Below the pieces are notes generated by a model. It ran no database searches and had not been told where the DNA came from. It saw only the letters and a program-made list of their open reading frames with translations. From contig AE017150.2 in assembly GCA_000002445.1 (NCBI GenBank), positions 800,001-864,000 of the forward strand: 64,000 bases of DNA, written 5' to 3'. This stretch comes from Trypanosoma brucei. Lineage: Eukaryota. The translations under genes were made by a program, and so were the position numbers. The number at the start of each line of letters is the position of its first letter. Position 1 is the stretch's first letter. Shown one piece after another: positions 5,281 through 64,000 of the stretch.

Positions 5281-5372
5281 GGAAGCAAGTAAGTAAGTGT
5301 CAAGGAAGTAATAATGATTGTTATGAAAAGGAAAAGGGAAAGGGAAAGGAATGAAAGGGGAAAGAATTCGTA
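5281..5372 (-). promoter_or_regulatory. Polypyrimidine tract / probable trans-splice acceptor region on the coding (minus) strand, upstream of the 1261-aa gene
   Basis: The + strand is strongly purine-rich here (ggaagcaagtaagtaagtgtcaaggaag...gaaaagggaaagggaaaggaatgaaagggg), which is CT-rich on the minus strand directly 5' of the ATG at 5278. In trypanosomatids the SL acceptor AG follows a polyY tract. Confidence 0.35.
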
Positions 5373-18320: not shown

Positions 18321-19538
18321 TTAAGAAGTGGTACCAACAATGCGTGACCACTCATGTTCCACATCACCATATTGAATATCTGTAATCGCCTTTAGAACCC
18401 GATGTGTGAGCGAAGCCCCTGGAGCCGGGCATGGAACATTAAGCAACTCTCCCTTATATGACAGTGCTTCCACAGGGGACACAATAGCAGCCGTCCCACA
18501 GCCAAAGCACTCAAGCACACGTTTCTCCCGTAGCGCAGCAGTGAGCTCGTGAATGGTAAAGGAGCGTTCAGATACACGTGCCTCACCCCACTGCCGCACC
18601 AGCGACAAAATGGAATCTCGCGTCACACCGGGGAGGATCGTGCCATCCAACGGCGCAGTTACAAGTTCCACTTCATTTGAATTTGCAGAAGGACGCCAAA
18701 GACACATGAAATTCATTGCTCCCACTTCTTGCACTTCTTCTCCAGCGCCCAGCCATAACACTTGCTGAAAGCCAAGCTCAGACGCTTCCCGCTGCACCAG
18801 CATAGGCGCAGCGTAGTTCGCGCCAAGCTTCACGTTGCCGACCCCACCAGGCCAGGCACGGCGCCGCTCCTCCTCCACATGAAGTCTCACAGGTTTCATC
18901 CCAGAGGGATAATATGGTCCAACAGGTGAAGCAATCACGAATAACTTCGCTGCAGAACCTGCCACTGCGGAGAGTGTGCTTCCAGTCCCAATTACAGTGG
19001 GTCTCAAGTATAGAGAGTAACCACGCTCACTTGGGACGTAATCACGTTCCACTTTCACAAACTCCTCAATTAACTTTTGCAGTTCGTCAGGGTCAAATCC
19101 AGGGAGACATAAGCGTCGTGTGCTGTCCAGTAGCCGTCGACAGTTACGATCCGGGCGGAAGAGTCGGATATTGCCGTGACTGTCGCGATACGCCTTCATG
19201 CCCTCGAAGCATTGAATGGCATAATGTAAGCAAGCAGTCTGCGGCGGCAATGAAAGGTTCTCAAAGGGAACAATACGTGGTTTGCCCCATTTCCCATTCC
19301 CATCTGCATCAATTACCAACATATGTGGGCTGAAAAGAGTACCAAACATAACTCCCTGCAGTGAAGGAAGTGGCGGTGGATTTGCCACGCGTTGAACAGT
19401 GAGGTCCTTGGCGAGGAAAGTCATAATAAACTGTTGTATTTGCCTGTGGTTCCCAAATATCGAAGTTTCTTTTATCAATAAGTTGTTTATCACTGTCGTC
19501 TGTGTTAGGAATGATAATGATAATAGTAAAGTGAGCAA
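18321..19538 (-). CDS. BCAT: Branched-chain amino acid aminotransferase (class IV PLP aminotransferase), tandem copy 1
   Basis: The BCAT hallmarks are present: FGTLFSPHMLV, GKWGKPRIVPF, LHYAIQCFEGMKAYR, IRLFRPDRNCRRL, SLYLRPTVIGT, SPVGPYY. The first 38 codons upstream of an internal Met (MTFLAK) may be a targeting peptide or a 5' over-extension. Confidence 0.85.
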   Translation of the reverse strand: MLTLLLSLSFLTQTTVINNLLIKETSIFGNHRQIQQFIMTFLAKDLTVQRVANPPPLPSLQGVMFGTLFSPHMLVIDADGNGKWGKPRIVPFENLSLPPQTACLHYAIQCFEGMKAYRDSHGNIRLFRPDRNCRRLLDSTRRLCLPGFDPDELQKLIEEFVKVERDYVPSERGYSLYLRPTVIGTGSTLSAVAGSAAKLFVIASPVGPYYPSGMKPVRLHVEEERRRAWPGGVGNVKLGANYAAPMLVQREASELGFQQVLWLGAGEEVQEVGAMNFMCLWRPSANSNEVELVTAPLDGTILPGVTRDSILSLVRQWGEARVSERSFTIHELTAALREKRVLECFGCGTAAIVSPVEALSYKGELLNVPCPAPGASLTHRVLKAITDIQYGDVEHEWSRIVGTTS

Positions 19539-20159: not shown

Positions 20160-21377
20160 TTAAGAAGTGGTACCAACAATGCGTGACCACTCATGTTCCA
20201 CATCACCATATTGAATATCTGTAATCGCCTTTAGAACCCGATGTGTGAGCGAAGCCCCTGGAGCCGGGCATGGAACATTAAGCAACTCTCCCTTATATGA
20301 CAGTGCTTCCACAGGGGACACAATAGCAGCCGTCCCACAGCCAAAGCACTCAAGCACACGTTTCTCCCGTAGCGCAGCAGTGAGCTCGTGAATGGTAAAG
20401 GAGCGTTCAGATACACGTGCCTCACCCCACTGCCGCACCAGCGACAAAATGGAATCTCGCGTCACACCGGGGAGGATCGTGCCATCCAACGGCGCAGTTA
20501 CAAGTTCCACTTCATTTGAATTTGCAGAAGGACGCCAAAGACACATGAAATTCATTGCTCCCACTTCTTGCACTTCTTCTCCAGCGCCCAGCCATAACAC
20601 TTGCTGAAAGCCAAGCTCAGACGCTTCCTGCTGCACCAGCATAGGCGCAGCGTAGTTCGCGCCAAGCTTCACGTTGCCGACCCCACCAGGCCAGGCACGG
20701 CGCCGCTCCTCCTCCACATGAAGTCTCACAGGTTTCATCCCAGAGGGATAATATGGTCCAACAGGTGAAGCAATCACGAATAACTTCGCTGCAGAACCTG
20801 CCACTGCGGAGAGTTTGCTTCCAGTCCCAATTACAGTGGGTCTCAAGTATAGAGAGTAACCACGCTCACTTGGGACGTAATCACGTTCCACTTTCACAAA
20901 CTCCTCAATTAACTTTTGCAGTTCGTCAGGGTCAAATCCAGGGAGACATAAGCGTCGTGTGCTGTCCAGTAGCCGTCGACAGTTACGATCCGGGCGGAAG
21001 AGTCGGATATTGCCGTGACTGTCGCGATACGCCTTCATGCCCTCGAAGCATTGAATGGCATAATGTAAGCAAGCAGTCTGCGGCGGCAATGAAAGGTTCT
21101 CAAAGGGAACAATACGTGGTTTGCCCCATTTCCCATTCCCATCTGCATCAATTACCAACATATGTGGGCTGAAAAGAGTACCAAACATAACTCCCTGCAG
21201 TGAAGGAAGTGGCGGTGGATTTGCCACGCGTTGAACAAAAATTTTTTTGGCGAGGAAAGTCATAATAAACTGTTGTATTTGCCTGTGGTTCCCAAATATC
21301 GAAGTTTCTTTTATCAATAAGTTGTTTATCACTGTCGTCTGTGTTAGGAATGATAATGATAATAGTAAAGTGAGCAA
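20160..21377 (-). CDS. BCAT: Branched-chain amino acid aminotransferase, tandem copy 2
   Basis: This 405-aa ORF is near-identical to copy 1 (period 1839 bp) and differs at only a few residues (KKIFV vs KDLTV; GSKLSAV vs GSTLSAV; VQQE vs VQRE). Confidence 0.85.
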   Translation of the reverse strand: MLTLLLSLSFLTQTTVINNLLIKETSIFGNHRQIQQFIMTFLAKKIFVQRVANPPPLPSLQGVMFGTLFSPHMLVIDADGNGKWGKPRIVPFENLSLPPQTACLHYAIQCFEGMKAYRDSHGNIRLFRPDRNCRRLLDSTRRLCLPGFDPDELQKLIEEFVKVERDYVPSERGYSLYLRPTVIGTGSKLSAVAGSAAKLFVIASPVGPYYPSGMKPVRLHVEEERRRAWPGGVGNVKLGANYAAPMLVQQEASELGFQQVLWLGAGEEVQEVGAMNFMCLWRPSANSNEVELVTAPLDGTILPGVTRDSILSLVRQWGEARVSERSFTIHELTAALREKRVLECFGCGTAAIVSPVEALSYKGELLNVPCPAPGASLTHRVLKAITDIQYGDVEHEWSRIVGTTS

Positions 21378-22035: not shown

Positions 22036-22674
22036 TTATGATTTCGAGAAAAAGTATTTCCTCAGTGACGAGACGATTGTCGCCCTCTTACCCGACTGGT
22101 CTGCAGGCAGCTTCGTGCCTTGAGGGGGTCGTAGCATTTGCAGTCCATCAGAAATGCCACATGGTCCTACCTCCACTGAGAGAATTAGCCCTGTGGGCAC
22201 AAGCCATAACATGATCATGAAGACAAACATATTCCCGTAACCAACCACCTCAGACGGCGCGTCTAAAGATACCAGGAGGTGCAGCCACAATACGGACTCT
22301 AAGAGAACAAAGAACCCCATGAACCATGTGAAGGGTTGTAGCAGCGGAAGGAGCGGGAAATGGCGCAAAGCGCGAAGGTACAGCCCATTTGTGATGCAAC
22401 TAACGAGTGAACATAAAAAGTTCATCCGGTCCACTACCATAATGAAGACATGAGCACCCATCACGGCAACCACCAGCACACGGAGGACCTTACCTGCTCG
22501 TGTTGGGAACTCTTCTGCCAAGTCAGAAATCAAATTCATGGCACAGAAGAAACTGAACAAAGCAAAGCAAAACAGTATTCCAGTCATCACCAGCGTTACG
22601 AGATGAAAGGCACCGAAGCCTATTGGTTGCGATAACGAAGAGTAGTCGCGTTCATAAACATCGGGATAAGGCAT
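22036..22674 (-). CDS. Multi-pass transmembrane protein (212 aa, ~5 predicted hydrophobic helices), family unknown
   Basis: Hydrophobic segments (LVTLVMTGILFCFALFSFF; VLVVAVMGAHVFIMVV; FTWFMGFFVLLESVLWLHLLV; MFVFMIMLWLVPTGLIL) lie in a complete ORF on the polycistron strand. Confidence 0.5.
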   Translation of the reverse strand: MPYPDVYERDYSSLSQPIGFGAFHLVTLVMTGILFCFALFSFFCAMNLISDLAEEFPTRAGKVLRVLVVAVMGAHVFIMVVDRMNFLCSLVSCITNGLYLRALRHFPLLPLLQPFTWFMGFFVLLESVLWLHLLVSLDAPSEVVGYGNMFVFMIMLWLVPTGLILSVEVGPCGISDGLQMLRPPQGTKLPADQSGKRATIVSSLRKYFFSKS

Positions 22675-38136: not shown

Positions 38137-40413
38137 TCAACATCGTGGACCAAGGGCAATAAGGAAAGGTTTTCCCTCCGGGTCCGCCTGGTCCGCAACC
38201 TCATGTCGTTTCCGCAACCAAAACAACTGCATAAGCCGCAATTTGAGCATATGCAGTCTATTGGACTCATGCACGACTGCGATTTCATTGTACTCCCCGT
38301 GCTTGCGGTGAAGCTCCCGCTGCGAGTACCGCGAAATCACGTAATCTATGCCTTCAGAGTTGTACAAGTCATTAGTTTCGTCAAATCGTATTTCTTCCTT
38401 AATGTATTGCATCTCCAGCCCGCGTCTCTGAAGCAATATCGAAAGACTGAAGGCATCTGATACCTCTGTGCGGCTGCTATCGCCACCACTAACAACAGCG
38501 GGGGATGGCACATTGCCCGTCCCAAACAATTCTTCATCATGAAGCCCAGTGTCGCCAACAACTATTGATCGTCCGACACTCATTAGCGCGCGGAAAGGAA
38601 ATGTCAAAAGTTTAACAAAGCGATCCGACACCTGCTGTGAAGCGCCAGCGGTTGCAAATGTGCTATTTGTGGGGTTCCGCCTCTGTATTTTATGCACCTT
38701 CTGGAAGCGGCTGATTCCAGTCATTGCTGCATAGGCGTCAATGAAGACAGAAATAGAGTTGCTCCTGTTCGTTCTTGTGGTTAGGCGCCGACTTAGGCAC
38801 GAGGACGAGTTCCTAACATCTTTTTCTACAGCGTGGTGAAGACGTCGTAGAGCCTCGGACCCCGGGTAATTATCAGCGCTCAAGTACACAGAAAGCAAAA
38901 CGGTCGCGAGCTGCACAGTGTACAAGAGGACTATCAAAGATGCGATGACAGAGCGCCGGGTTAAGCAAGCAAGAAACCACCTCGGCCTGACATTAAAACC
39001 ACCCTTCCCATCTCCTCTGCTGCGCAGGTTTGCACCCTCATTCCTCCACTTTACTAGCGTAGCACGCCCCTGTACAATTCCCTTTCCTTTTGTCACCTCC
39101 AATGTGCAAGATGACAGTGGCCGCGCGAAACACTCGTCCCATAGGCGTGTACCAGCCGCCGCTAGGGGCACCAGCAACCAGGGAAACACAATCATCAAAA
39201 ACCGAACTTCCTTGTGGGGAAGCAAACTGTACAATACGATGAAGAGACTTGACGGTACCAATAAGTCAGCGTACCGCTCGCTGGTGTCCAGAAACACCCA
39301 AAGCGCACAGTGGGCTGCAGCAGGTGATGGTTCTTCACTAGTTGTTCCTTCTCTTCTGCCCGCGCCCGACAACCTATGCAATGCAAAATATATGTTCCCC
39401 CACCCCATGCACACTAAAGTAAGCCACAATGGATACAGAAAGAGCAAGCTGCGCGGCAGTGCCACCAGCACGTACCAATATACGGGCAGCCTTCCCCACC
39501 TCCACGATTGATTCTCTGCGGTGTTAAACAGGAGAACCACGGCTTCCGGCCACACCAACCTCCCCCACAAGTAGCTATCCATCCCAATACTGAAGATAAC
39601 GACAGCAGCCACCGAACAGATGCCCGCCGCGACGCCACGCAGCAACGTGATGTCACCTCTCAACAACAAGAATAAAGAGTAAGGTGCCAGCAAGACCAGA
39701 ACATCACATCGAAACAACGCTGAGGTAGCGCTGAGCAGTGCAATTGCCCAATAGTATTTGCCACGGCAAGTAGCACCACATGCTAGAGTACACATTATAA
39801 GTCCGTACGTGTTGGGCAACGGCCGCGTTGCATAAAATACCAAATGAAATTGCGACAGGCACAACAAGTAAAACACACTCGAAACATGCCGCATACTGAC
39901 AGGGCACCTGGCTGCGGCAACACGTGAAGATGTGCTCTTGAATTTTTCCCATTTCGCAGCGCTGTCAATACCACAACCAACATAACCGAGAGCACAGCAG
40001 GTGACGACGCCCAAGGTCACCCGACACATGTTAGAAGCAAGCATTGGAAACAACGCAAACAACTCCTCAGAAGAACCCACAAGACCAACATCCTCCACCA
40101 GTCGAACAAACCATGCAACATCTCCCGCAACAACATACTTCAATGGTTCCAATAGGAACCTTACGACATAATTCACATCACAGAGAAACGGCAACATCGC
40201 CAACGACGCAACAAACCAAGGTCCAGTAAACGTTCGAGGAACCACCCCAGGCGAGCTTAAATGGTCAAAACATGCTCTTTTACCACAAAGCAAAAAATCA
40301 TGCATCGCCTGCATACCGAAGCTCTCCTCCACTTTCGTATAAGGGCAAACTATTTCAACAGAAATGACACAAGCCAACAAAAATAAAAAACTAAAAAACG
40401 ATAAAACAGTCAT
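38137..40413 (-). CDS. ALG12: Dol-P-Man-dependent alpha-1,6-mannosyltransferase of the ALG12 type (GT22 family), carrying a ~270-aa C-terminal extension
   Basis: The N-terminus CPYTKVEESFGMQAMHDFL...FDHLSSPGVVPRTFTGP matches the GT22/ALG12 signature (PYTKVEESFNLQATHD...FPGVVPRTF). About ten hydrophobic helices follow over ~470 aa, and the remaining ~270 aa are hydrophilic. Confidence 0.75.
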   Translation of the reverse strand: MTVLSFFSFLFLLACVISVEIVCPYTKVEESFGMQAMHDFLLCGKRACFDHLSSPGVVPRTFTGPWFVASLAMLPFLCDVNYVVRFLLEPLKYVVAGDVAWFVRLVEDVGLVGSSEELFALFPMLASNMCRVTLGVVTCCALGYVGCGIDSAAKWEKFKSTSSRVAAARCPVSMRHVSSVFYLLCLSQFHLVFYATRPLPNTYGLIMCTLACGATCRGKYYWAIALLSATSALFRCDVLVLLAPYSLFLLLRGDITLLRGVAAGICSVAAVVIFSIGMDSYLWGRLVWPEAVVLLFNTAENQSWRWGRLPVYWYVLVALPRSLLFLYPLWLTLVCMGWGNIYFALHRLSGAGRREGTTSEEPSPAAAHCALWVFLDTSERYADLLVPSSLFIVLYSLLPHKEVRFLMIVFPWLLVPLAAAGTRLWDECFARPLSSCTLEVTKGKGIVQGRATLVKWRNEGANLRSRGDGKGGFNVRPRWFLACLTRRSVIASLIVLLYTVQLATVLLSVYLSADNYPGSEALRRLHHAVEKDVRNSSSCLSRRLTTRTNRSNSISVFIDAYAAMTGISRFQKVHKIQRRNPTNSTFATAGASQQVSDRFVKLLTFPFRALMSVGRSIVVGDTGLHDEELFGTGNVPSPAVVSGGDSSRTEVSDAFSLSILLQRRGLEMQYIKEEIRFDETNDLYNSEGIDYVISRYSQRELHRKHGEYNEIAVVHESNRLHMLKLRLMQLFWLRKRHEVADQADPEGKPFLIALGPRC

Positions 40414-40507
40414 TTACAGATAAGACTACGTGAAAAGGAAAAGAAAAAAAATAGAAATTTAAAAACTGCACTCACTCACAGAGAATATACATTACACGTC
40501 ACAAGCA

Positions 40508-40880
40508 TTCAAATACAGCACAAAAATAAGGTTGACAACGAGCTTCCGGTGCACACACCAACCCGTAAACGAATAACAAAGCACATCAAAAACACAAAAC
40601 TACCAAGACAATCGATAAGGTAACTGTATGCCACGCCAACCAGTTGCAGCGCAATGCTCATACTGGCAAACGTGGCACACGCTGCGCCAAGGCTCACAGT
40701 ATCAACAGTGATGTAATCGACAGAGCGTTACCAAATACATCACCACGACAGGACATAGCACACTACGGAACCTGCAACATTACGATATAGCTGCAAAACA
40801 AAACAACAGGAAAAACAATTACTGTATATCCACAACACCGGTCACAGCTGCGCCCCATCACGCGTCCAGTACACCTCCCC
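40508..40880. repeat. Copy A of an exact ~370-bp direct repeat (copy B is at 63630-64000). It contains the last ~12 codons of the uL11 gene plus ~335 bp of its 3' flank
   Basis: Identical 62-aa ORFs appear at 40509..40697 and 63632..63820 in the track. Direct comparison shows base-for-base identity from ttcaaatacagcacaaaaataagg through ...cgcgtccagtacacctc. Confidence 0.9.
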
Positions 40881-42412: not shown

Positions 42413-43393
42413 CTACTCAATTATACCACACAGAAACGACAAGAATAACAGGATACAACAAACAGGAAACGGCACCTTGTACAGAAGGAACACACTCAAT
42501 AGTGAGTACATCTCCCTCCCAGAATCAGGTGCAATAACATTCGTCATTCTGCTTGCCTCGCCGACAGCTGCTTCATACCCATTACTGCACCGACCGCTAG
42601 GAACAGTACCTGAAGCACAGTTAACAGGAGAATAAACCAATGGAGAAGCCGAAGCAGCAGTCTGATCCCCAGCACCCTTTGGGGAGTGACGGCTCCTCAA
42701 CGCTGTCGAAGGTGGAGACACCTCTCCTCCAGCATTCCTTACAGCTGAACCTAACTGTGGCTGTGCTGCCGGAGCTTTCTCCACAGCCGCAGTCTCACAA
42801 CCTTCCACAAGTCCTTCCACCTTTCCATGACTTCGCTTCATCACAAGGCTATCCGGAACACCCAACTCCCCATAAATACAGCGAAGTGCACACCGAACAG
42901 CATTCCGCTCCCTCGCCTGCACACGTCCACGTTGCTTCCAAAATGCAGCAGCGACGTCCGGACCGCTAGGGCCCTTGCTACTACAGTCACCTCCAAAGAA
43001 ACCACTCACAGACTCATACGGTGCCATAACTTCCCTCGGCACCACACATATATCCACGAACACCTCATCCCTTGTGCCAGCGTCTGGCAACTCCACAGCT
43101 CCTTCCTCCACGCCACCACGCCTCGCTGCGAGACGACGGAGCCTACGGATGTCAAGCATAAACTTCACCCTCACACATTCACCAGCAAATATCAGTCCAA
43201 CAGATGGTTGAACACCATAGCGATTGCGTACAGCACTGAGAACTTTGAACGCCACAACATTCTCACAAGGGTCCTCAGTACGTACAAGTAGACTACTTAA
43301 CTCGATAATATTCTCAATACTGGCATCCGTCAGAGGAGAAGGAAAGTACAGGCACTCCTGTGAAAAACAAACAATGCCCCCACCACCCTTCAT
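42413..43393 (-). CDS. Hypothetical protein (326 aa)
   Basis: Complete co-oriented ORF. No confident motif recognised. Confidence 0.5.
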   Translation of the reverse strand: MKGGGGIVCFSQECLYFPSPLTDASIENIIELSSLLVRTEDPCENVVAFKVLSAVRNRYGVQPSVGLIFAGECVRVKFMLDIRRLRRLAARRGGVEEGAVELPDAGTRDEVFVDICVVPREVMAPYESVSGFFGGDCSSKGPSGPDVAAAFWKQRGRVQARERNAVRCALRCIYGELGVPDSLVMKRSHGKVEGLVEGCETAAVEKAPAAQPQLGSAVRNAGGEVSPPSTALRSRHSPKGAGDQTAASASPLVYSPVNCASGTVPSGRCSNGYEAAVGEASRMTNVIAPDSGREMYSLLSVFLLYKVPFPVCCILLFLSFLCGIIE

Positions 43394-43893: not shown

Positions 43894-44082
43894 TTACAAC
43901 ATATATATACAAACAGTATTAGGCATGGAGAAATACTCCTTCACATTAACAATCACGCGTCCATCATCACCATCAGCAGCAGTCACATGCAGCGAACACA
44001 CGGCAGTTAGCAATAATAAAATACCGCACAGGAGAGCAGCACGCGTAAAACCAAAATTCACCATACGGGTGTCCATGCTCAT
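43894..44082 (-). pseudogene. Truncated duplicate of the 5' end of the surface glycoprotein gene at 44902..45999. It keeps the signal peptide plus ~17 further residues and then diverges to a stop
   Basis: The first 53 aa (MSMDTRMVNFGFTRAALLCGILLLLTAVCSLHVTAADGDDGRVIVNVKEYFSM) are identical to the full gene. Nucleotide identity extends ~230 bp into the 5' flank (43900-44310 vs 45820-46230). Downstream the reading frame decays into AT-rich non-coding sequence. Confidence 0.55.
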
Positions 44083-44901
44083 TGTCAGTGTTGCTTCCTT
44101 ATGACTTTATCAAATACACACATATGCGGGAAAGAGGGAAGAGCGTGTGAGTAAAGGGGAAATGCAACAGTGACAATAGAAAAAGGAGTTACACAAGATA
44201 TCAAATAATCACACATACACTCGAGGATAATAAACAAGAAATATGAAAAGGATAACACAAATAATAATGGAAGAGAGCAGCCATATCACATATCCCAACA
44301 AATTGGTTAGTGAGACACAGGTACTCAAAACATTTATTATCATAATGGGCCAAGTATAACTCAGGGATTGAACACTATGGAACTCTCATTTAATACAACC
44401 TCATATAGATTGTTAAAATAATTAAGTGCTGCAAGTTACACGTATAGCAATACATCACACGTAACAGGGAGGACCTACAAGCCTCCCACATATACATGGA
44501 AGTAAAACATGAAATAACGCGAACTAAACATGACACCCACACACGAAATAAATAATCAACACCAACAACAACGAAACAATGGGACATCAAACAGTAAAGA
44601 TGGTTCAATGGGTCACACACTAAAAGAGCAATGATGTGGTCGGAGGGAAGTGATGCCACACATCGGAAGTCCCTCGCAGAGCCAACATGGTACAAGGAGA
44701 TCGTTAATATTAGGAACATAAAAGTAATAATTACATAAGAGAGTATTGAGCACTACTGAAAGTAATAATAGGAAGTGAAACAATACACGAAGCTAGAAAT
44801 TTTGACGGTCCGTAACGTAGGATGAAAGCGGCACAGTATTCATTACTCCACTTGATCCTAAACATCACTCAACCACCACCCATGTGATACACGATGTGAC
44901 G

Positions 44902-45999
44902 CTAATACGATTGACCGGTCATCATTTGGTTATAATATTGCAGGGCTAAGGGAGGAGCAGCAAAACCCTCTGGGGGAACAAAAGGTGTTGGCTCCAGGAC
45001 AAACAACGGCTCTCCAACAACTTCACGCAGCGTCATGGGAATGATCTCCTTTTTAACATTATAATCACAGAACCAACGTAAAAGGAAAAGCAGCAACACA
45101 ATGAGGGAAACAACAGAAATTAGAGCTATAAGAATAATGAGCAAATCAATCCTCTCTTCCAATGACACAGTTGTCACAGTAACTTCTTCATCCTTTGTCA
45201 CAGTTGGTTCCGGTACTTCGCCAGAGGCAGGTGCAGTTGTAGTTGTAGTGGTAGTTGTTGTGGTTGTCGTCGTGCTGATAGAATCATGGACCTCGCAAAC
45301 AACAACGTAGTCTTGAGACTTTGTTTCAAAGTTCTGACTTGTCCAACGAATAGTCCCAGAAGCCTCCCTGCCATCATACCAGGTAGTCACATCATCATCT
45401 TCATGGTACCATGAAAGGGTATACAACTGACCATGCTTGGGATATTCACTACCCCAAAAGGATGGGTAACCATTCATTGGAGCCGCAAAAGCGTATTTGA
45501 CATATGAACCACGCCAGAACGCCACCCCGTGACCATCAGGCAAAGCCTTTGCAAACAATCCCTTATTCCAACGATACACACAATGACGTGAAGATGCCGC
45601 GTCTCCAGGCTTACAACGCTTATCAGCCACAATGGCCCCGCCACTACTGTACACAGCATCTCCACCAAGGTAGCTGAAAGCATCCGAACCCGTTAACACA
45701 TCTTTCATTGCATCCTGCAAACTTTGGTGTGCCGCCTCCGTTTGATCGGCAGGAAGCACAGCGCCATTGTCGCGGCAATATGCTTCAGCATTGTTGTAAC
45801 TAACAAAGTACTTCCCATGACGACTAAATGCAAAATTGTCCATAGAGAAATACTCCTTCACATTAACAATCACGCGTCCATCATCACCATCAGCAGCAGT
45901 CACATGCAGCGAACACACGGCAGTTAGCAATAATAAAATACCGCACAGGAGAGCAGCACGCGTAAAACCAAAATTCACCATACGGGTGTCCATGCTCAT
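44902..45999 (-). CDS. Type-I membrane glycoprotein. It has a signal peptide, an ectodomain with a possible C-type-lectin-like fold, a poly-Thr (T13) stalk, one TM helix and a short cytoplasmic tail
   Basis: The N-terminal hydrophobic signal is AALLCGILLLLTAV and the cysteine spacing is consistent with a CTLD (YCRDNGAVLP...; ...YVVVCEV). TTTTTTTTTTTTT is encoded at ~45225-45280, and a TM segment LLIILIALISVVSLIVLLLFLL precedes the tail RWFCDYNVKKE. The CTLD assignment is tentative. Confidence 0.6.
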   Translation of the reverse strand: MSMDTRMVNFGFTRAALLCGILLLLTAVCSLHVTAADGDDGRVIVNVKEYFSMDNFAFSRHGKYFVSYNNAEAYCRDNGAVLPADQTEAAHQSLQDAMKDVLTGSDAFSYLGGDAVYSSGGAIVADKRCKPGDAASSRHCVYRWNKGLFAKALPDGHGVAFWRGSYVKYAFAAPMNGYPSFWGSEYPKHGQLYTLSWYHEDDDVTTWYDGREASGTIRWTSQNFETKSQDYVVVCEVHDSISTTTTTTTTTTTTTAPASGEVPEPTVTKDEEVTVTTVSLEERIDLLIILIALISVVSLIVLLLFLLRWFCDYNVKKEIIPMTLREVVGEPLFVLEPTPFVPPEGFAAPPLALQYYNQMMTGQSY

Positions 46000-47103
46000 T
46001 GTCAGTGTTGTTTCCTTATGACTTTATCAAATACACACATATGCGGGAAAGAGGGAAGAGCGTGTGAGTAAAGGGGAAATGCAACAGTGACAATAGAAAA
46101 AGGAGTTACACAAGATATCAAATAATCACACATACACTCGAGGATAATAAACAAGAAATATGAAAAGGATAACACAAATAATAATGGAAGAGAGCAGCCA
46201 TATCACATATCCCAACAAATTGGTTAGTGAGGCACAGGTACACGTCGTATTTGATACAATAGTGGAGAAACTAAAGCAGAAAGAATATACATTATTCAAC
46301 TCTTGTTTGGTACAACCCTACTGTGCGAGGTCACCCGGAGCATTCGAGAGTGATGAAAACCAAATCCTCGCCTATTCATTATCCACGTTAGTTGAGGGGC
46401 GGAAGTGCTGCGTACATCAACGCGCGGTAAGAAGCGAGTGAAAACCGACTTACATTTGTCGCGACCTTCTTCAGGTGACGTCCGTAGGTGTGCCTGATCA
46501 GGATACGGCCATCTAGTATGAGAAGTAACCGGCGACGCCGATCTATCCGAACAAATACTACAACAAACAGCATAGACACGGAAGCGGAGTGGGAAAGCAT
46601 CACCAGCTCAGTTGTACTCAGTGTGCCAATAGGGTGGTTTTTTTTCTGCTATAAAAAAAGAACTTGAAGCATAAAGAAACGATGGTCCGCCTCCAGCTGC
46701 GTACCGGCGCACAGCGGAACCCCCATTGAATTTAAAACATCGTGCAGGTGGAGGTGCGGCAAGTTTACTCCCTCCCTTCCCTTCATTGTCTTCTTGGGTA
46801 CCTCGCGCATGTCCCAACAAACCACACAATCTCCAACCCGAGGACAACCGATAACGGGCATACGCTTTGTCTCCCCGCAAAGTCTCCAAGCGCGCACGTA
46901 TTCACATCACTATCGCAGCCTGTCATATTGCATACAAGTCGCTGTGGCCTTGCGAAAAAAAGCTCCCAGCTAGCGTAAACTAAACTCTCTCCAAGCACCA
47001 GGAGACAGAGTTGCAAATGCACACCACCACTCAGTCCCAACCTCGCTTCTTCGATCTGTTCATCTGTCAACACCAGCTCTCCCAAGTCCGTTCATCCATT
47101 GTG

Positions 47104-63562: not shown

Positions 63563-63629
63563 ACTTAAACTGATAAAAAAACAGCCTTAACTACAAAAGG
63601 GATATGCCTAAAAAAAACCTAAATAAAAG

Positions 63630-64000
63630 ATTCAAATACAGCACAAAAATAAGGTTGACAACGAGCTTCCGGTGCACACACCAACCCGTAAACGAATAAC
63701 AAAGCACATCAAAAACACAAAACTACCAAGACAATCGATAAGGTAACTGTATGCCACGCCAACCAGTTGCAGCGCAATGCTCATACTGGCAAACGTGGCA
63801 CACGCTGCGCCAAGGCTCACAGTATCAACAGTGATGTAATCGACAGAGCGTTACCAAATACATCACCACGACAGGACATAGCACACTACGGAACCTGCAA
63901 CATTACGATATAGCTGCAAAACAAAACAACAGGAAAAACAATTACTGTATATCCACAACACCGGTCACAGCTGCGCCCCATCACGCGTCCAGTACACCTC
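63630..64000. repeat. Copy B of the ~370-bp direct repeat, running to the window edge. It ends inside a sequence identical to the uL11 C-terminal codons (VYWTRDGAQL*)
   Basis: Same evidence as copy A. The repeat may continue beyond coordinate 64000. Confidence 0.9.

What the first reader, a model, noticed from the sequence alone, without database searches (positions are those of the whole stretch)
44902..45999. Surface-type membrane glycoprotein with a poly-Thr stalk and a possible C-type-lectin-like ectodomain
The architecture is signal peptide, ~200-aa cysteine-containing ectodomain, 13 consecutive Thr (a likely O-glycosylated mucin-like stalk), a single TM and a short tail. That is typical of a cell-surface or endosomal receptor. 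The ectodomain has cysteine and Trp spacing reminiscent of CTLDs (…AEAYCRDNGAVLPADQTEAAH…; WY.EDD…W…DYVVVCEV). CTLD proteins are unusual in kinetoplastids, so the fold assignment is worth testing. The T13 tract, encoded by an imperfect (ACN) repeat, is also a likely site of length polymorphism.
Basis: partly seen in the sequence, partly recalled or inferred. Interest (0 to 1): 0.5.

Follow-up and report, generated by a model that had tools for sequence, protein, structure and literature searches.

The report
Known trypanosome IGP40 lectin-like protein
This gene is an ordinary copy of IGP40, a Trypanosoma brucei membrane protein family described in 2014 that carries a C-type-lectin-like domain and sits in the endoplasmic reticulum rather than on the cell surface.

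The parts
44902..45999 (-). Complete IGP40 coding sequence (365 codons + stop), 40.4 kDa type I membrane protein
   Evidence: ORF list; mass and features; PF16825 E 5.5e-84; 98.4% identical to T. b. gambiense P0018 and 96.7% to the syntenic T. b. equiperdum P0001
45895..45999 (-). Predicted signal peptide, aa 1-35 (basic n-region, h-region AALLCGILLLLTAVC, cleavage about VTA|AD)
   Evidence: Hydropathy and -3/-1 rule. The family was originally recovered by a SignalP screen. The exact cleavage site is inferred.
45292..45810 (-). IGP-family C-type lectin-like domain (aa 64-236; the folded unit modelled was aa 40-242)
45427..45660 (-). Family-specific conserved insert within the CTLD 'long-loop' region (aa 114-191). 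It holds C129 and C140, CVYRWNxGLF and AFWRGS, and is poorly modelled.
   Evidence: Invariant columns in A1/A2; pLDDT <50 in both models
45235..45273 (-). Thr13 tract (aa 243-255), imperfect ACN codon run and length-polymorphic
   Evidence: A 6-nt indel plus one ACT/GCT change separate it from the T. b. equiperdum orthologue. Tract lengths are 13, 10, 10, 10, 6, 10 and 8 across T. brucei IGP40 proteins.
45079..45144 (-). Transmembrane helix (aa 286-307, LLIILIALISVVSLIVLLLFLL)
   Evidence: Kyte-Doolittle 19-aa window up to 3.46; modelled as a helix at 282-313
44905..45078 (-). Cytoplasmic tail (aa 308-365) with the conserved PMxLRE and PFVPP motifs
   Evidence: Alignment A1. Domain swaps showed that the IGP40 TMD and tail carry no essential ER-retention signal.
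45841..46241 (-). Upstream copy of a 401-nt direct repeat: ~240 nt of 5' flank (polypyrimidine tract plus AG, a candidate trans-splice acceptor) and codons 1-53
   Evidence: the repeat finder; alignment; blastn; sequence. The splice-acceptor role is inferred.
43924..44324 (-). Downstream copy of the 401-nt repeat. It holds a truncated IGP40 5' remnant (62-codon ORF 43894-44082), the partial second unit of a 1.91-kb array repeat.
   Evidence: 99% identity; tblastn aa 1-55 at 98%; the same structure occurs in T. b. equiperdum; window 43918-46241 is 93% identical to each of six tandem units in L002

Best explanation
This is a dispersed, single-copy member of the IGP40 subfamily of trypanosomatid 'invariant glycoproteins', on Trypanosoma brucei-group chromosome 2.

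Shown here: it is a type I membrane protein whose N-terminal domain is a divergent C-type lectin-like domain (Pfam PF16825). It lacks the canonical Ca2+/sugar-binding motifs and carries a ~45-residue family-specific conserved insert with an extra Cys pair. A Thr-rich spacer, one TM helix and a 58-aa tail follow.

Taken from published experiments on the close paralogue Tb927.2.5330: IGP40 resides in the ER and not at the surface. The lumenal domain retains it, not the TM helix or tail. It turns over fast (half-life ~30 min). Its mRNA rises in stumpy forms. Pan-subfamily RNAi slows bloodstream-form growth.

Inferred: the CTLD mediates retention through homo- or hetero-oligomerisation or ligand binding in the ER lumen, as shown for IGP48. 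It may act as a selective cargo- or folding-associated receptor. The Thr tract is mainly an extended spacer whose length drifts by 6-nt slippage.
For: - Pfam PF16825 at E 5.5e-84 over the whole profile.
- Mass 40.4 kDa.
- IGP40 qRT-PCR primers F and R, and a third IGP40 primer, match the ORF exactly.
- 83-98% identity to T. brucei chromosome-2 IGP40 proteins.
- Gene order is syntenic with T. b. equiperdum, and the DNA is 99% identical over 18.8 kb.
- Table S2 of the paper lists dispersed chromosome-2 IGP genes (Tb927.2.4760, Tb927.2.4920) besides the array.
- ER location, lumenal-domain retention, half-life, RNAi and stumpy up-regulation come from PMC4497807.
Against: - All functional data come from a paralogue (Tb927.2.5330), not this locus. 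Array copies available here are only 83-86% identical.
- Localisation used C-terminally HA-tagged, ectopically expressed protein.
- Oligomerisation was demonstrated for IGP48 only.
- The central third of the domain (aa 114-191) is modelled at pLDDT <50. Its structure and the register of the Ca2+-site residues are therefore uncertain.
- No Foldseek hit reached E<=0.001.
- No ligand is known.
Confidence: 0.88

Rival explanations
1. One reading: a cell-surface or endosomal receptor that presents a lectin domain on a heavily O-glycosylated mucin-like poly-Thr stalk.
For: The architecture (signal peptide, globular domain, Thr-rich stalk, TM, tail) is typical of surface receptors. Thr-rich stalks are conserved and much longer in the T. 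congolense and T. vivax homologues. When the lumenal domain is replaced, the IGP40 TM and tail do travel to endosomes and the surface. A GT60 polypeptide GlcNAc-transferase homologue (TbOGNT1) exists in T. brucei without a known substrate.
Against: IGP40-HA co-localises with BiP, and there was no evidence of surface IGP40 in non-permeabilised cells. IGP40-HA migrates close to its core polypeptide mass. [quoted passage not shown]
Confidence: 0.05
2. A genuine Ca2+-dependent carbohydrate-binding C-type lectin acting as an ER/Golgi glycoprotein cargo receptor. This is a functional analogue of ERGIC-53, as the 2014 authors proposed.
For: CTLD fold. ER location with possible Golgi cycling, and a growth defect without bulk glycosylation or trafficking defects, as with ERGIC-53.
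Against: There is no EPN or QPD motif anywhere in the protein. The best candidate positions read YPK (186-188) and W-Y/F/R-D (207-209) across the family, so most Ca2+-site-2 ligands are missing. Only the alpha1-alpha2 half shows sequence similarity to Lectin_C. IGP48 knock-down gave no lectin-blot change. Many CTLDs bind proteins rather than sugars (own knowledge).
Confidence: 0.15
3. A decaying, non-functional dispersed copy left over from contraction or relocation of the IGP40 tandem array.
For: The locus holds only 1.2 array units, with a truncated second copy. The exact protein sequence is not in the 15-billion-protein collection.
Against: The ORF is intact, and all invariant family residues and the four Cys are conserved. 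Intact orthologues at 97-98% identity are kept in T. b. equiperdum and T. b. gambiense, the former at the syntenic site. The upstream polypyrimidine/AG region is intact.
Confidence: 0.04

Closest known systems
IGP40 subfamily of T. brucei invariant glycoproteins (e.g. Tb927.2.5330; Allison et al. 2014, PMC4497807)
   Same: Same Pfam domain, size (40 kDa), chromosome, topology, Thr tract, TM helix and tail motifs. Three published IGP40 primers match exactly. It shares 83-86% identity with array copies and 97-98% with orthologues in other T. brucei subspecies.
   Different: It is a solitary copy outside the main tandem array, flanked by a 401-nt direct repeat and a truncated second unit. Its T13 tract is the longest among the seven T. 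brucei sequences compared here. It has no N-glycosylation sequon.
IGP48 and IGP34 subfamilies (PF16825)
   Same: Same CTLD with the conserved GGDA...C...CVYRWNxGLF...AFWRGS core, type I topology, and ER residence (shown for IGP48).
   Different: Only 31-37% identity. IGP48 has an N-glycosylated DENTTV-type repeat 'TRIM' region in place of the short Thr stalk. IGP48 is long-lived (about 6 h) whereas IGP40 has a half-life of about 30 min.
Canonical metazoan C-type lectin-like domains (PF00059; e.g. mannose receptor CRD-4 1egg, tetranectin 1htn, CD93 8a59, collectins)
   Different: About 10-18% identity. A ~45-residue conserved insert lies in the long-loop region, with its own closely spaced Cys pair (129/140) in place of the canonical C2-C3 pair. 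There are no EPN/QPD or WND motifs. Pfam Lectin_C scores only E 0.1, below its cut-off.
ERGIC-53/LMAN1 (functional analogy proposed by the 2014 authors)
   Same: A type I membrane protein of the early secretory pathway with a lumenal lectin-type domain, stalk, TM helix and short tail. It is oligomeric, and its loss has selective rather than bulk effects.
   Different: No sequence relationship. ERGIC-53 has an L-type (legume-like) lectin domain, not a CTLD (own knowledge; the paper calls it C-type). ERGIC-53 sorting depends on cytoplasmic KKFF signals, whereas IGP40 retention maps to the lumenal domain.
T. cruzi mucins (TcMUC) with Thr-rich O-GlcNAc-glycosylated repeats
   Same: Runs of Thr, often with Pro/Ala/Lys interruptions in the T. 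congolense and T. vivax IGP40-like stalks.
   Different: TcMUC proteins are GPI-anchored surface coat proteins glycosylated in the Golgi. IGP40 is a TM protein of the ER with no evidence of O-glycans.

Membership tests
IGP family (Pfam PF16825 / DUF5075) | Significant full-length match to the PF16825 domain model | tested here: met
   E 5.5e-84, 280.5 bits against a cut-off of 22.6, profile 1-173/173, aa 64-236
IGP family (Pfam PF16825 / DUF5075) | Type I topology: N-terminal signal peptide, single TM helix, C-terminal cytoplasmic tail | tested here: met
   Two hydrophobic segments at aa 10-36 and 284-309. This rests on hydropathy only, because no SignalP or TMHMM was available.
IGP family (Pfam PF16825 / DUF5075) | Encoded in a housekeeping (non-telomeric, non-VSG) region of a kinetoplastid genome | tested here: met
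   Neighbours are mitoribosomal L11, an ALG9-like mannosyltransferase, an RRM protein, Spb1 and RabGAP, all on one strand. The window is 99% identical to T. b. equiperdum chromosome 2.
IGP family (Pfam PF16825 / DUF5075) | At least one N-glycosylation sequon (part of the rationale for the name 'glycoprotein') | tested here: not met
   There is no N-x-S/T sequon in the window protein or in 5 of 6 other T. brucei IGP40 sequences. This is a naming criterion, not a homology criterion.
IGP family (Pfam PF16825 / DUF5075) | ER localisation mediated by the lumenal domain | not testable with these tools
   Published for the paralogue Tb927.2.5330 only
IGP40 subfamily | Core polypeptide of about 40 kDa | tested here: met
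   40,388 Da for the full polypeptide, and about 36.6 kDa after signal-peptide removal
IGP40 subfamily | 85-100% identity within the subfamily, much lower to IGP48 and IGP34 | tested here: met
   98.4, 96.7, 89.3, 87.4, 86.0 and 82.6% to T. brucei chromosome-2 proteins (the lowest is just under the quoted range). Over the domain, identity is 37% to IGP48-type P0010 and to IGP34-type P0013.
IGP40 subfamily | Matches the published pan-IGP40 primers | tested here: met
   IGP40-RTF, IGP40-RTR and IGP40:FP match exactly inside the ORF. IGP40:RP, read from machine-read PDF text, was not found within 3 mismatches.
C-type lectin-like domain (CTLD) superfamily | CTLD fold (beta-alpha-alpha-beta core plus C-terminal beta-sheet) | tested here: met
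C-type lectin-like domain (CTLD) superfamily | Conserved Cys in alpha1 and in the last beta-strand (canonical C1-C4 disulfide) | tested here: inconclusive
   C75 and C235 are invariant or near-invariant, lie in the modelled alpha1 and last strand, and align with the collectin Cys in alpha1. The bond itself could not be measured because no coordinates were available.
Ca2+-dependent C-type lectin (carbohydrate-recognition domain sensu stricto) | EPN or QPD motif plus WND motif forming Ca2+ site 2 | tested here: not met
   No EPN or QPD motif is present. Candidate positions read YPK/YPQ/YPA/YPH and W-(Y/F/R)-D across the family. The alignment register to collectins is ambiguous in this half.
Ca2+-dependent C-type lectin (carbohydrate-recognition domain sensu stricto) | Pfam Lectin_C (PF00059) match above the gathering threshold | tested here: not met
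   E 0.1, 13.8 bits against a cut-off of 22.6, aa 67-104 only
Mucin-type O-glycoprotein | Ser/Thr-rich tract that is actually O-glycosylated | not testable with these tools
   The tract is present. Published data argue against heavy modification, and no such glycans are known in T. brucei.

The most novel reading that the evidence does not exclude
The conserved Thr-rich stalk of IGP40-type proteins (T6-T13 in T. brucei, 40-70 residues in T. congolense and T. vivax) could be the missing substrate of the orphan GT60 polypeptide alpha-GlcNAc-transferase TbOGNT1. IGP40 would then be the first mucin-type O-glycoprotein in African trypanosomes, modified while cycling through the Golgi. Tract length would tune glycan load or how far the CTLD stands off the membrane.
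Probability: 0.06. Interest if true: 0.55.

Novelty: already known. Interest (0 to 1): 0.12.

Why it matters
It matters little beyond correct annotation. The gene should be labelled IGP40 (invariant glycoprotein, PF16825, an ER-resident CTLD protein) rather than a surface lectin receptor.

Three small points may help specialists:
- Most T. brucei IGP40 copies lack any N-glycosylation sequon, so calling them glycoproteins rests on nothing measured.
- The domain lacks the canonical Ca2+/sugar-binding residues. It is therefore better called lectin-like, and a protein ligand or self-association is as plausible as a glycan.
- The Thr tract varies by 2-codon steps between isolates and could serve as a simple strain-typing marker.

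The biochemical function and ligand of the IGP family remain open.

Tried and rejected
1. Direct sequence search of the protein against PDB gave only noise (fibronectin, cadherin; E>0.7), driven by the Thr-rich and TM segments.
2. A full-length AlphaFold run on a 14-sequence alignment gave pLDDT 51.5, too poor to use. It was replaced by a domain-only run.
3. A profile search through the word-indexed protein database to deepen the alignment returned only 5 hits, 2 of them new fragments. The alignment for AF2 therefore stayed shallow and aa 114-191 stayed unmodelled.
The N-terminal half aligned well, but the two C-terminal registers conflict. I therefore do not claim residue-level equivalence for the Ca2+ site, only that no EPN/QPD/WND motif exists in either register.
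6. The afdb50 fold library was unavailable.
7. An exact-sequence look-up of TREU927 P0003 on contigs found nothing. The window protein itself is not in the collection.
8. I looked for other IGP copies in the 64-kb window and found only the 55-codon remnant.
9. I considered a pseudogene or array relic and rejected it, because the intact ORF is conserved in two other T. brucei-group genomes (T. b. equiperdum at the syntenic site, T. b. gambiense by sequence).

Full report
**Observation.** The coordinates 44902-45999 delimit a complete ORF, but on the minus strand. The plus-strand frame is full of stops. The product is 365 aa and 40.4 kDa.

Hydropathy gives an N-terminal hydrophobic segment (aa ~10-36, ending SLHVTA|AD) and a strongly hydrophobic helix at aa ~284-309. 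That leaves a 58-residue C-terminal tail. The intervening region has Cys at 75, 129, 140 and 235.

A run of exactly 13 Thr (aa 243-255, window 45235-45273) is encoded by a mixture of ACG, ACA, ACC and ACT codons. Tandem Repeats Finder sees only a weak period-6/12 signal there.

**Identity.** Pfam matches residues 64-236 to PF16825, 'IGP family C-type lectin domain' (DUF5075). The match has E 5.5e-84 and covers profile positions 1-173 of 173. The generic Lectin_C model PF00059 scores only E 0.1 over aa 67-104.

PF16825 was created for the 'invariant glycoprotein' family described by Allison, O'Reilly, Sternberg and Field (Microb Cell 2014, PMC4497807). They reported twenty type I membrane proteins in T. 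brucei TREU927, split into IGP34 (2 genes), IGP40 (10) and IGP48 (8).

Four results place the window protein in IGP40:
- Its core mass is 40.4 kDa.
- The paper's pan-IGP40 qRT-PCR primers match the ORF exactly, at 45892-45909 and 45412-45432. So does a third IGP40 primer, at 45562-45583. A fourth primer, taken from machine-read PDF text, was not found.
- The best database hits are T. brucei-group chromosome-2 proteins at 83-98% identity: T. b. gambiense P0018 at 98.4% and T. b. equiperdum P0001 at 96.7%.
- IGP48-type and IGP34-type proteins are only about 31-37% identical.

The T. b. equiperdum orthologue sits in the same gene order (357-aa, 940-aa, IGP, 326-aa, mitoribosomal L11, ALG9-like mannosyltransferase, RRM protein). 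The DNA is 99.0% identical over 18.8 kb. The paper's Table S2 already lists dispersed chromosome-2 IGP genes (Tb927.2.4760, Tb927.2.4920) as well as the 5330-5360 array. The gene is therefore an allele of a catalogued gene. Its exact protein sequence is not in the 15-billion-sequence collection, chiefly because of the Thr-tract length.

A full-length AlphaFold2 model on 14 homologues was poor (pLDDT 51.5). A domain-only model (aa 40-242, 16 sequences) reached pTM 0.65. It has a confident beta-alpha-alpha-beta N-terminal half and confident C-terminal strands. Residues 114-191 stayed below pLDDT 50.

There is sequence-level support as well:
- A profile of the domain searched against PDB sequences gave 15 hits, all collectin or mosquito CTLDs aligned in register over beta1-alpha1-alpha2 (best E 0.018).
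- A HMMER scan of 1.84 billion representative proteins with the family profile found only 56 proteins at E<=1e-3. Beyond PF16825 proteins, these include canonical multi-Lectin_C proteins, for example P0045 with seven PF00059 domains at E 4.7e-9.

The CTLD assignment therefore holds, as the 2014 authors and Pfam had already concluded.

**How it differs from a canonical C-type lectin.** The family's most conserved block is GGDA...C129...C140-VYRWNxGLF...AFWRGS...YP. It lies in what would be the long-loop region, is about 45 residues longer than in collectins, and is the part AlphaFold could not model.

There is no EPN or QPD motif and no WND motif. In the register suggested by the model, the corresponding positions read Y-P-K/Q/A/H and W-Y/F/R-D. 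It gave conflicting registers for the C-terminal half, so I do not claim residue equivalence. In neither register are the Ca2+-site-2 ligands conserved. 'Lectin-like' is justified, but 'lectin' is not demonstrated.

**Function and location.** This part rests on published experiments with the paralogue Tb927.2.5330:
- HA-tagged IGP40 co-localises with BiP. No surface signal was seen on non-permeabilised cells.
- Replacing the TM helix and tail with those of ISG65 leaves IGP40 in the ER. Replacing the lumenal domain with BiPN releases it to endosomes, the lysosome and the surface. Retention therefore maps to the lumenal domain.
- IGP40-HA has a half-life of about 30 min.
- IGP40 mRNA is up-regulated in stumpy forms.
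- Pan-IGP40 RNAi slows bloodstream-form proliferation.
- For IGP48 the lumenal domain forms high-order oligomers, and the authors propose retention by oligomerisation and an ERGIC-53-like role.

By inference the window protein works the same way, as an ER-resident CTLD protein held in place by lumenal interactions, with the Thr stalk as a spacer.

**The Thr stalk.** Length polymorphism is confirmed. The longest Thr run is 13 residues here. It is 10 in the T. b. gambiense and T. b. equiperdum orthologues and in two other copies, 8 in one TREU927 copy and 6 in another.

At the DNA level the window differs from the T. b. equiperdum orthologue by a 6-nt insertion and one ACT/GCT change. Three of the six amino-acid differences from the T. 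b. gambiense protein lie in the tract. T. congolense and T. vivax homologues have much longer Thr/Pro/Ala/Ser stalks.

O-glycosylation is unsupported. IGP40-HA migrates close to its predicted core mass. [quoted passage not shown] That orphan enzyme is the basis of the low-probability novel reading offered here.

**Locus structure.** A 401-nt direct repeat (45841-46241 and 43924-44324, 99% identical) duplicates about 240 nt of 5' flank plus the first 53 codons. This leaves a truncated 62-codon remnant 820 nt downstream of the stop codon. The start-to-start spacing of 1917 nt equals the unit length of the IGP40 tandem array.

Window 43918-46241 is 93% identical to each of six tandem units about 100 kb away on T. 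b. equiperdum chromosome 2. The same 1.2-unit structure exists at the orthologous T. b. equiperdum locus, so it is not an assembly artefact of this window.

**Verdict.** The surface-receptor and mucin readings are not supported. Novelty: already known. Interest: low.

Noticed in passing
window 43894-44324 (-) and 45841-46241 (-): A 401-nt direct repeat (99% identical) flanks the IGP40 gene. The downstream copy holds a truncated 62-codon IGP40 5' remnant that keeps the upstream polypyrimidine/AG region. The locus equals 1.2 units of the 1.91-kb IGP40 array repeat and is conserved in T. b. equiperdum. The remnant's retained splice-acceptor region could set the IGP40 polyadenylation site, or add a signal-peptide uORF to the downstream MSP-domain gene's mRNA (speculation).
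   Followed up: partly
window 44902-45999 (-) and homologues P0001, P0002, P0016, P0017, P0018: Six of seven T. brucei IGP40 proteins compared have no N-x-S/T sequon at all; only P0003 has two. [quoted passage not shown]
   Followed up: yes
window 40503-40877 and 63627-64000: A dispersed direct repeat of at least 375 nt at 99.7% identity, cut off by the window end. One copy overlaps the 3' end and downstream region of the mitoribosomal L11-like ORF. The other lies upstream of the dual-specificity phosphatase ORF.
   Followed up: no
window 18321-19538 (-) and 20160-21377 (-): Two tandem 405-aa ORFs, both class-IV aminotransferase (PF01063, branched-chain aminotransferase-like): a local gene duplication.
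   Followed up: no
window 1-64000: All 23 non-overlapping ORFs of at least 200 aa are on the minus strand, and GC skew is consistently negative. This fits a single kinetoplastid polycistronic transcription unit. Low-GC intergenic blocks lie at about 14-18 kb and 30-34 kb.
   Followed up: no
L002 4014-15569 (T. b. equiperdum CM010673.1): blastn shows six tandem IGP40 array units, but only three genes were called there. At least some units are probably uncalled or degenerate copies. The array lies next to RHS and trans-sialidase-like genes.
   Followed up: no
window 42413-43393 (-) and 22036-22674 (-): Other early-secretory-pathway genes share the same transcription unit: a weak MSP/VAP-like domain protein with a C-terminal hydrophobic tail, an Erv26-like cargo adaptor, and an ALG9-like mannosyltransferase (38137-40413). 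This is probably coincidental in a polycistronic genome.
   Followed up: no
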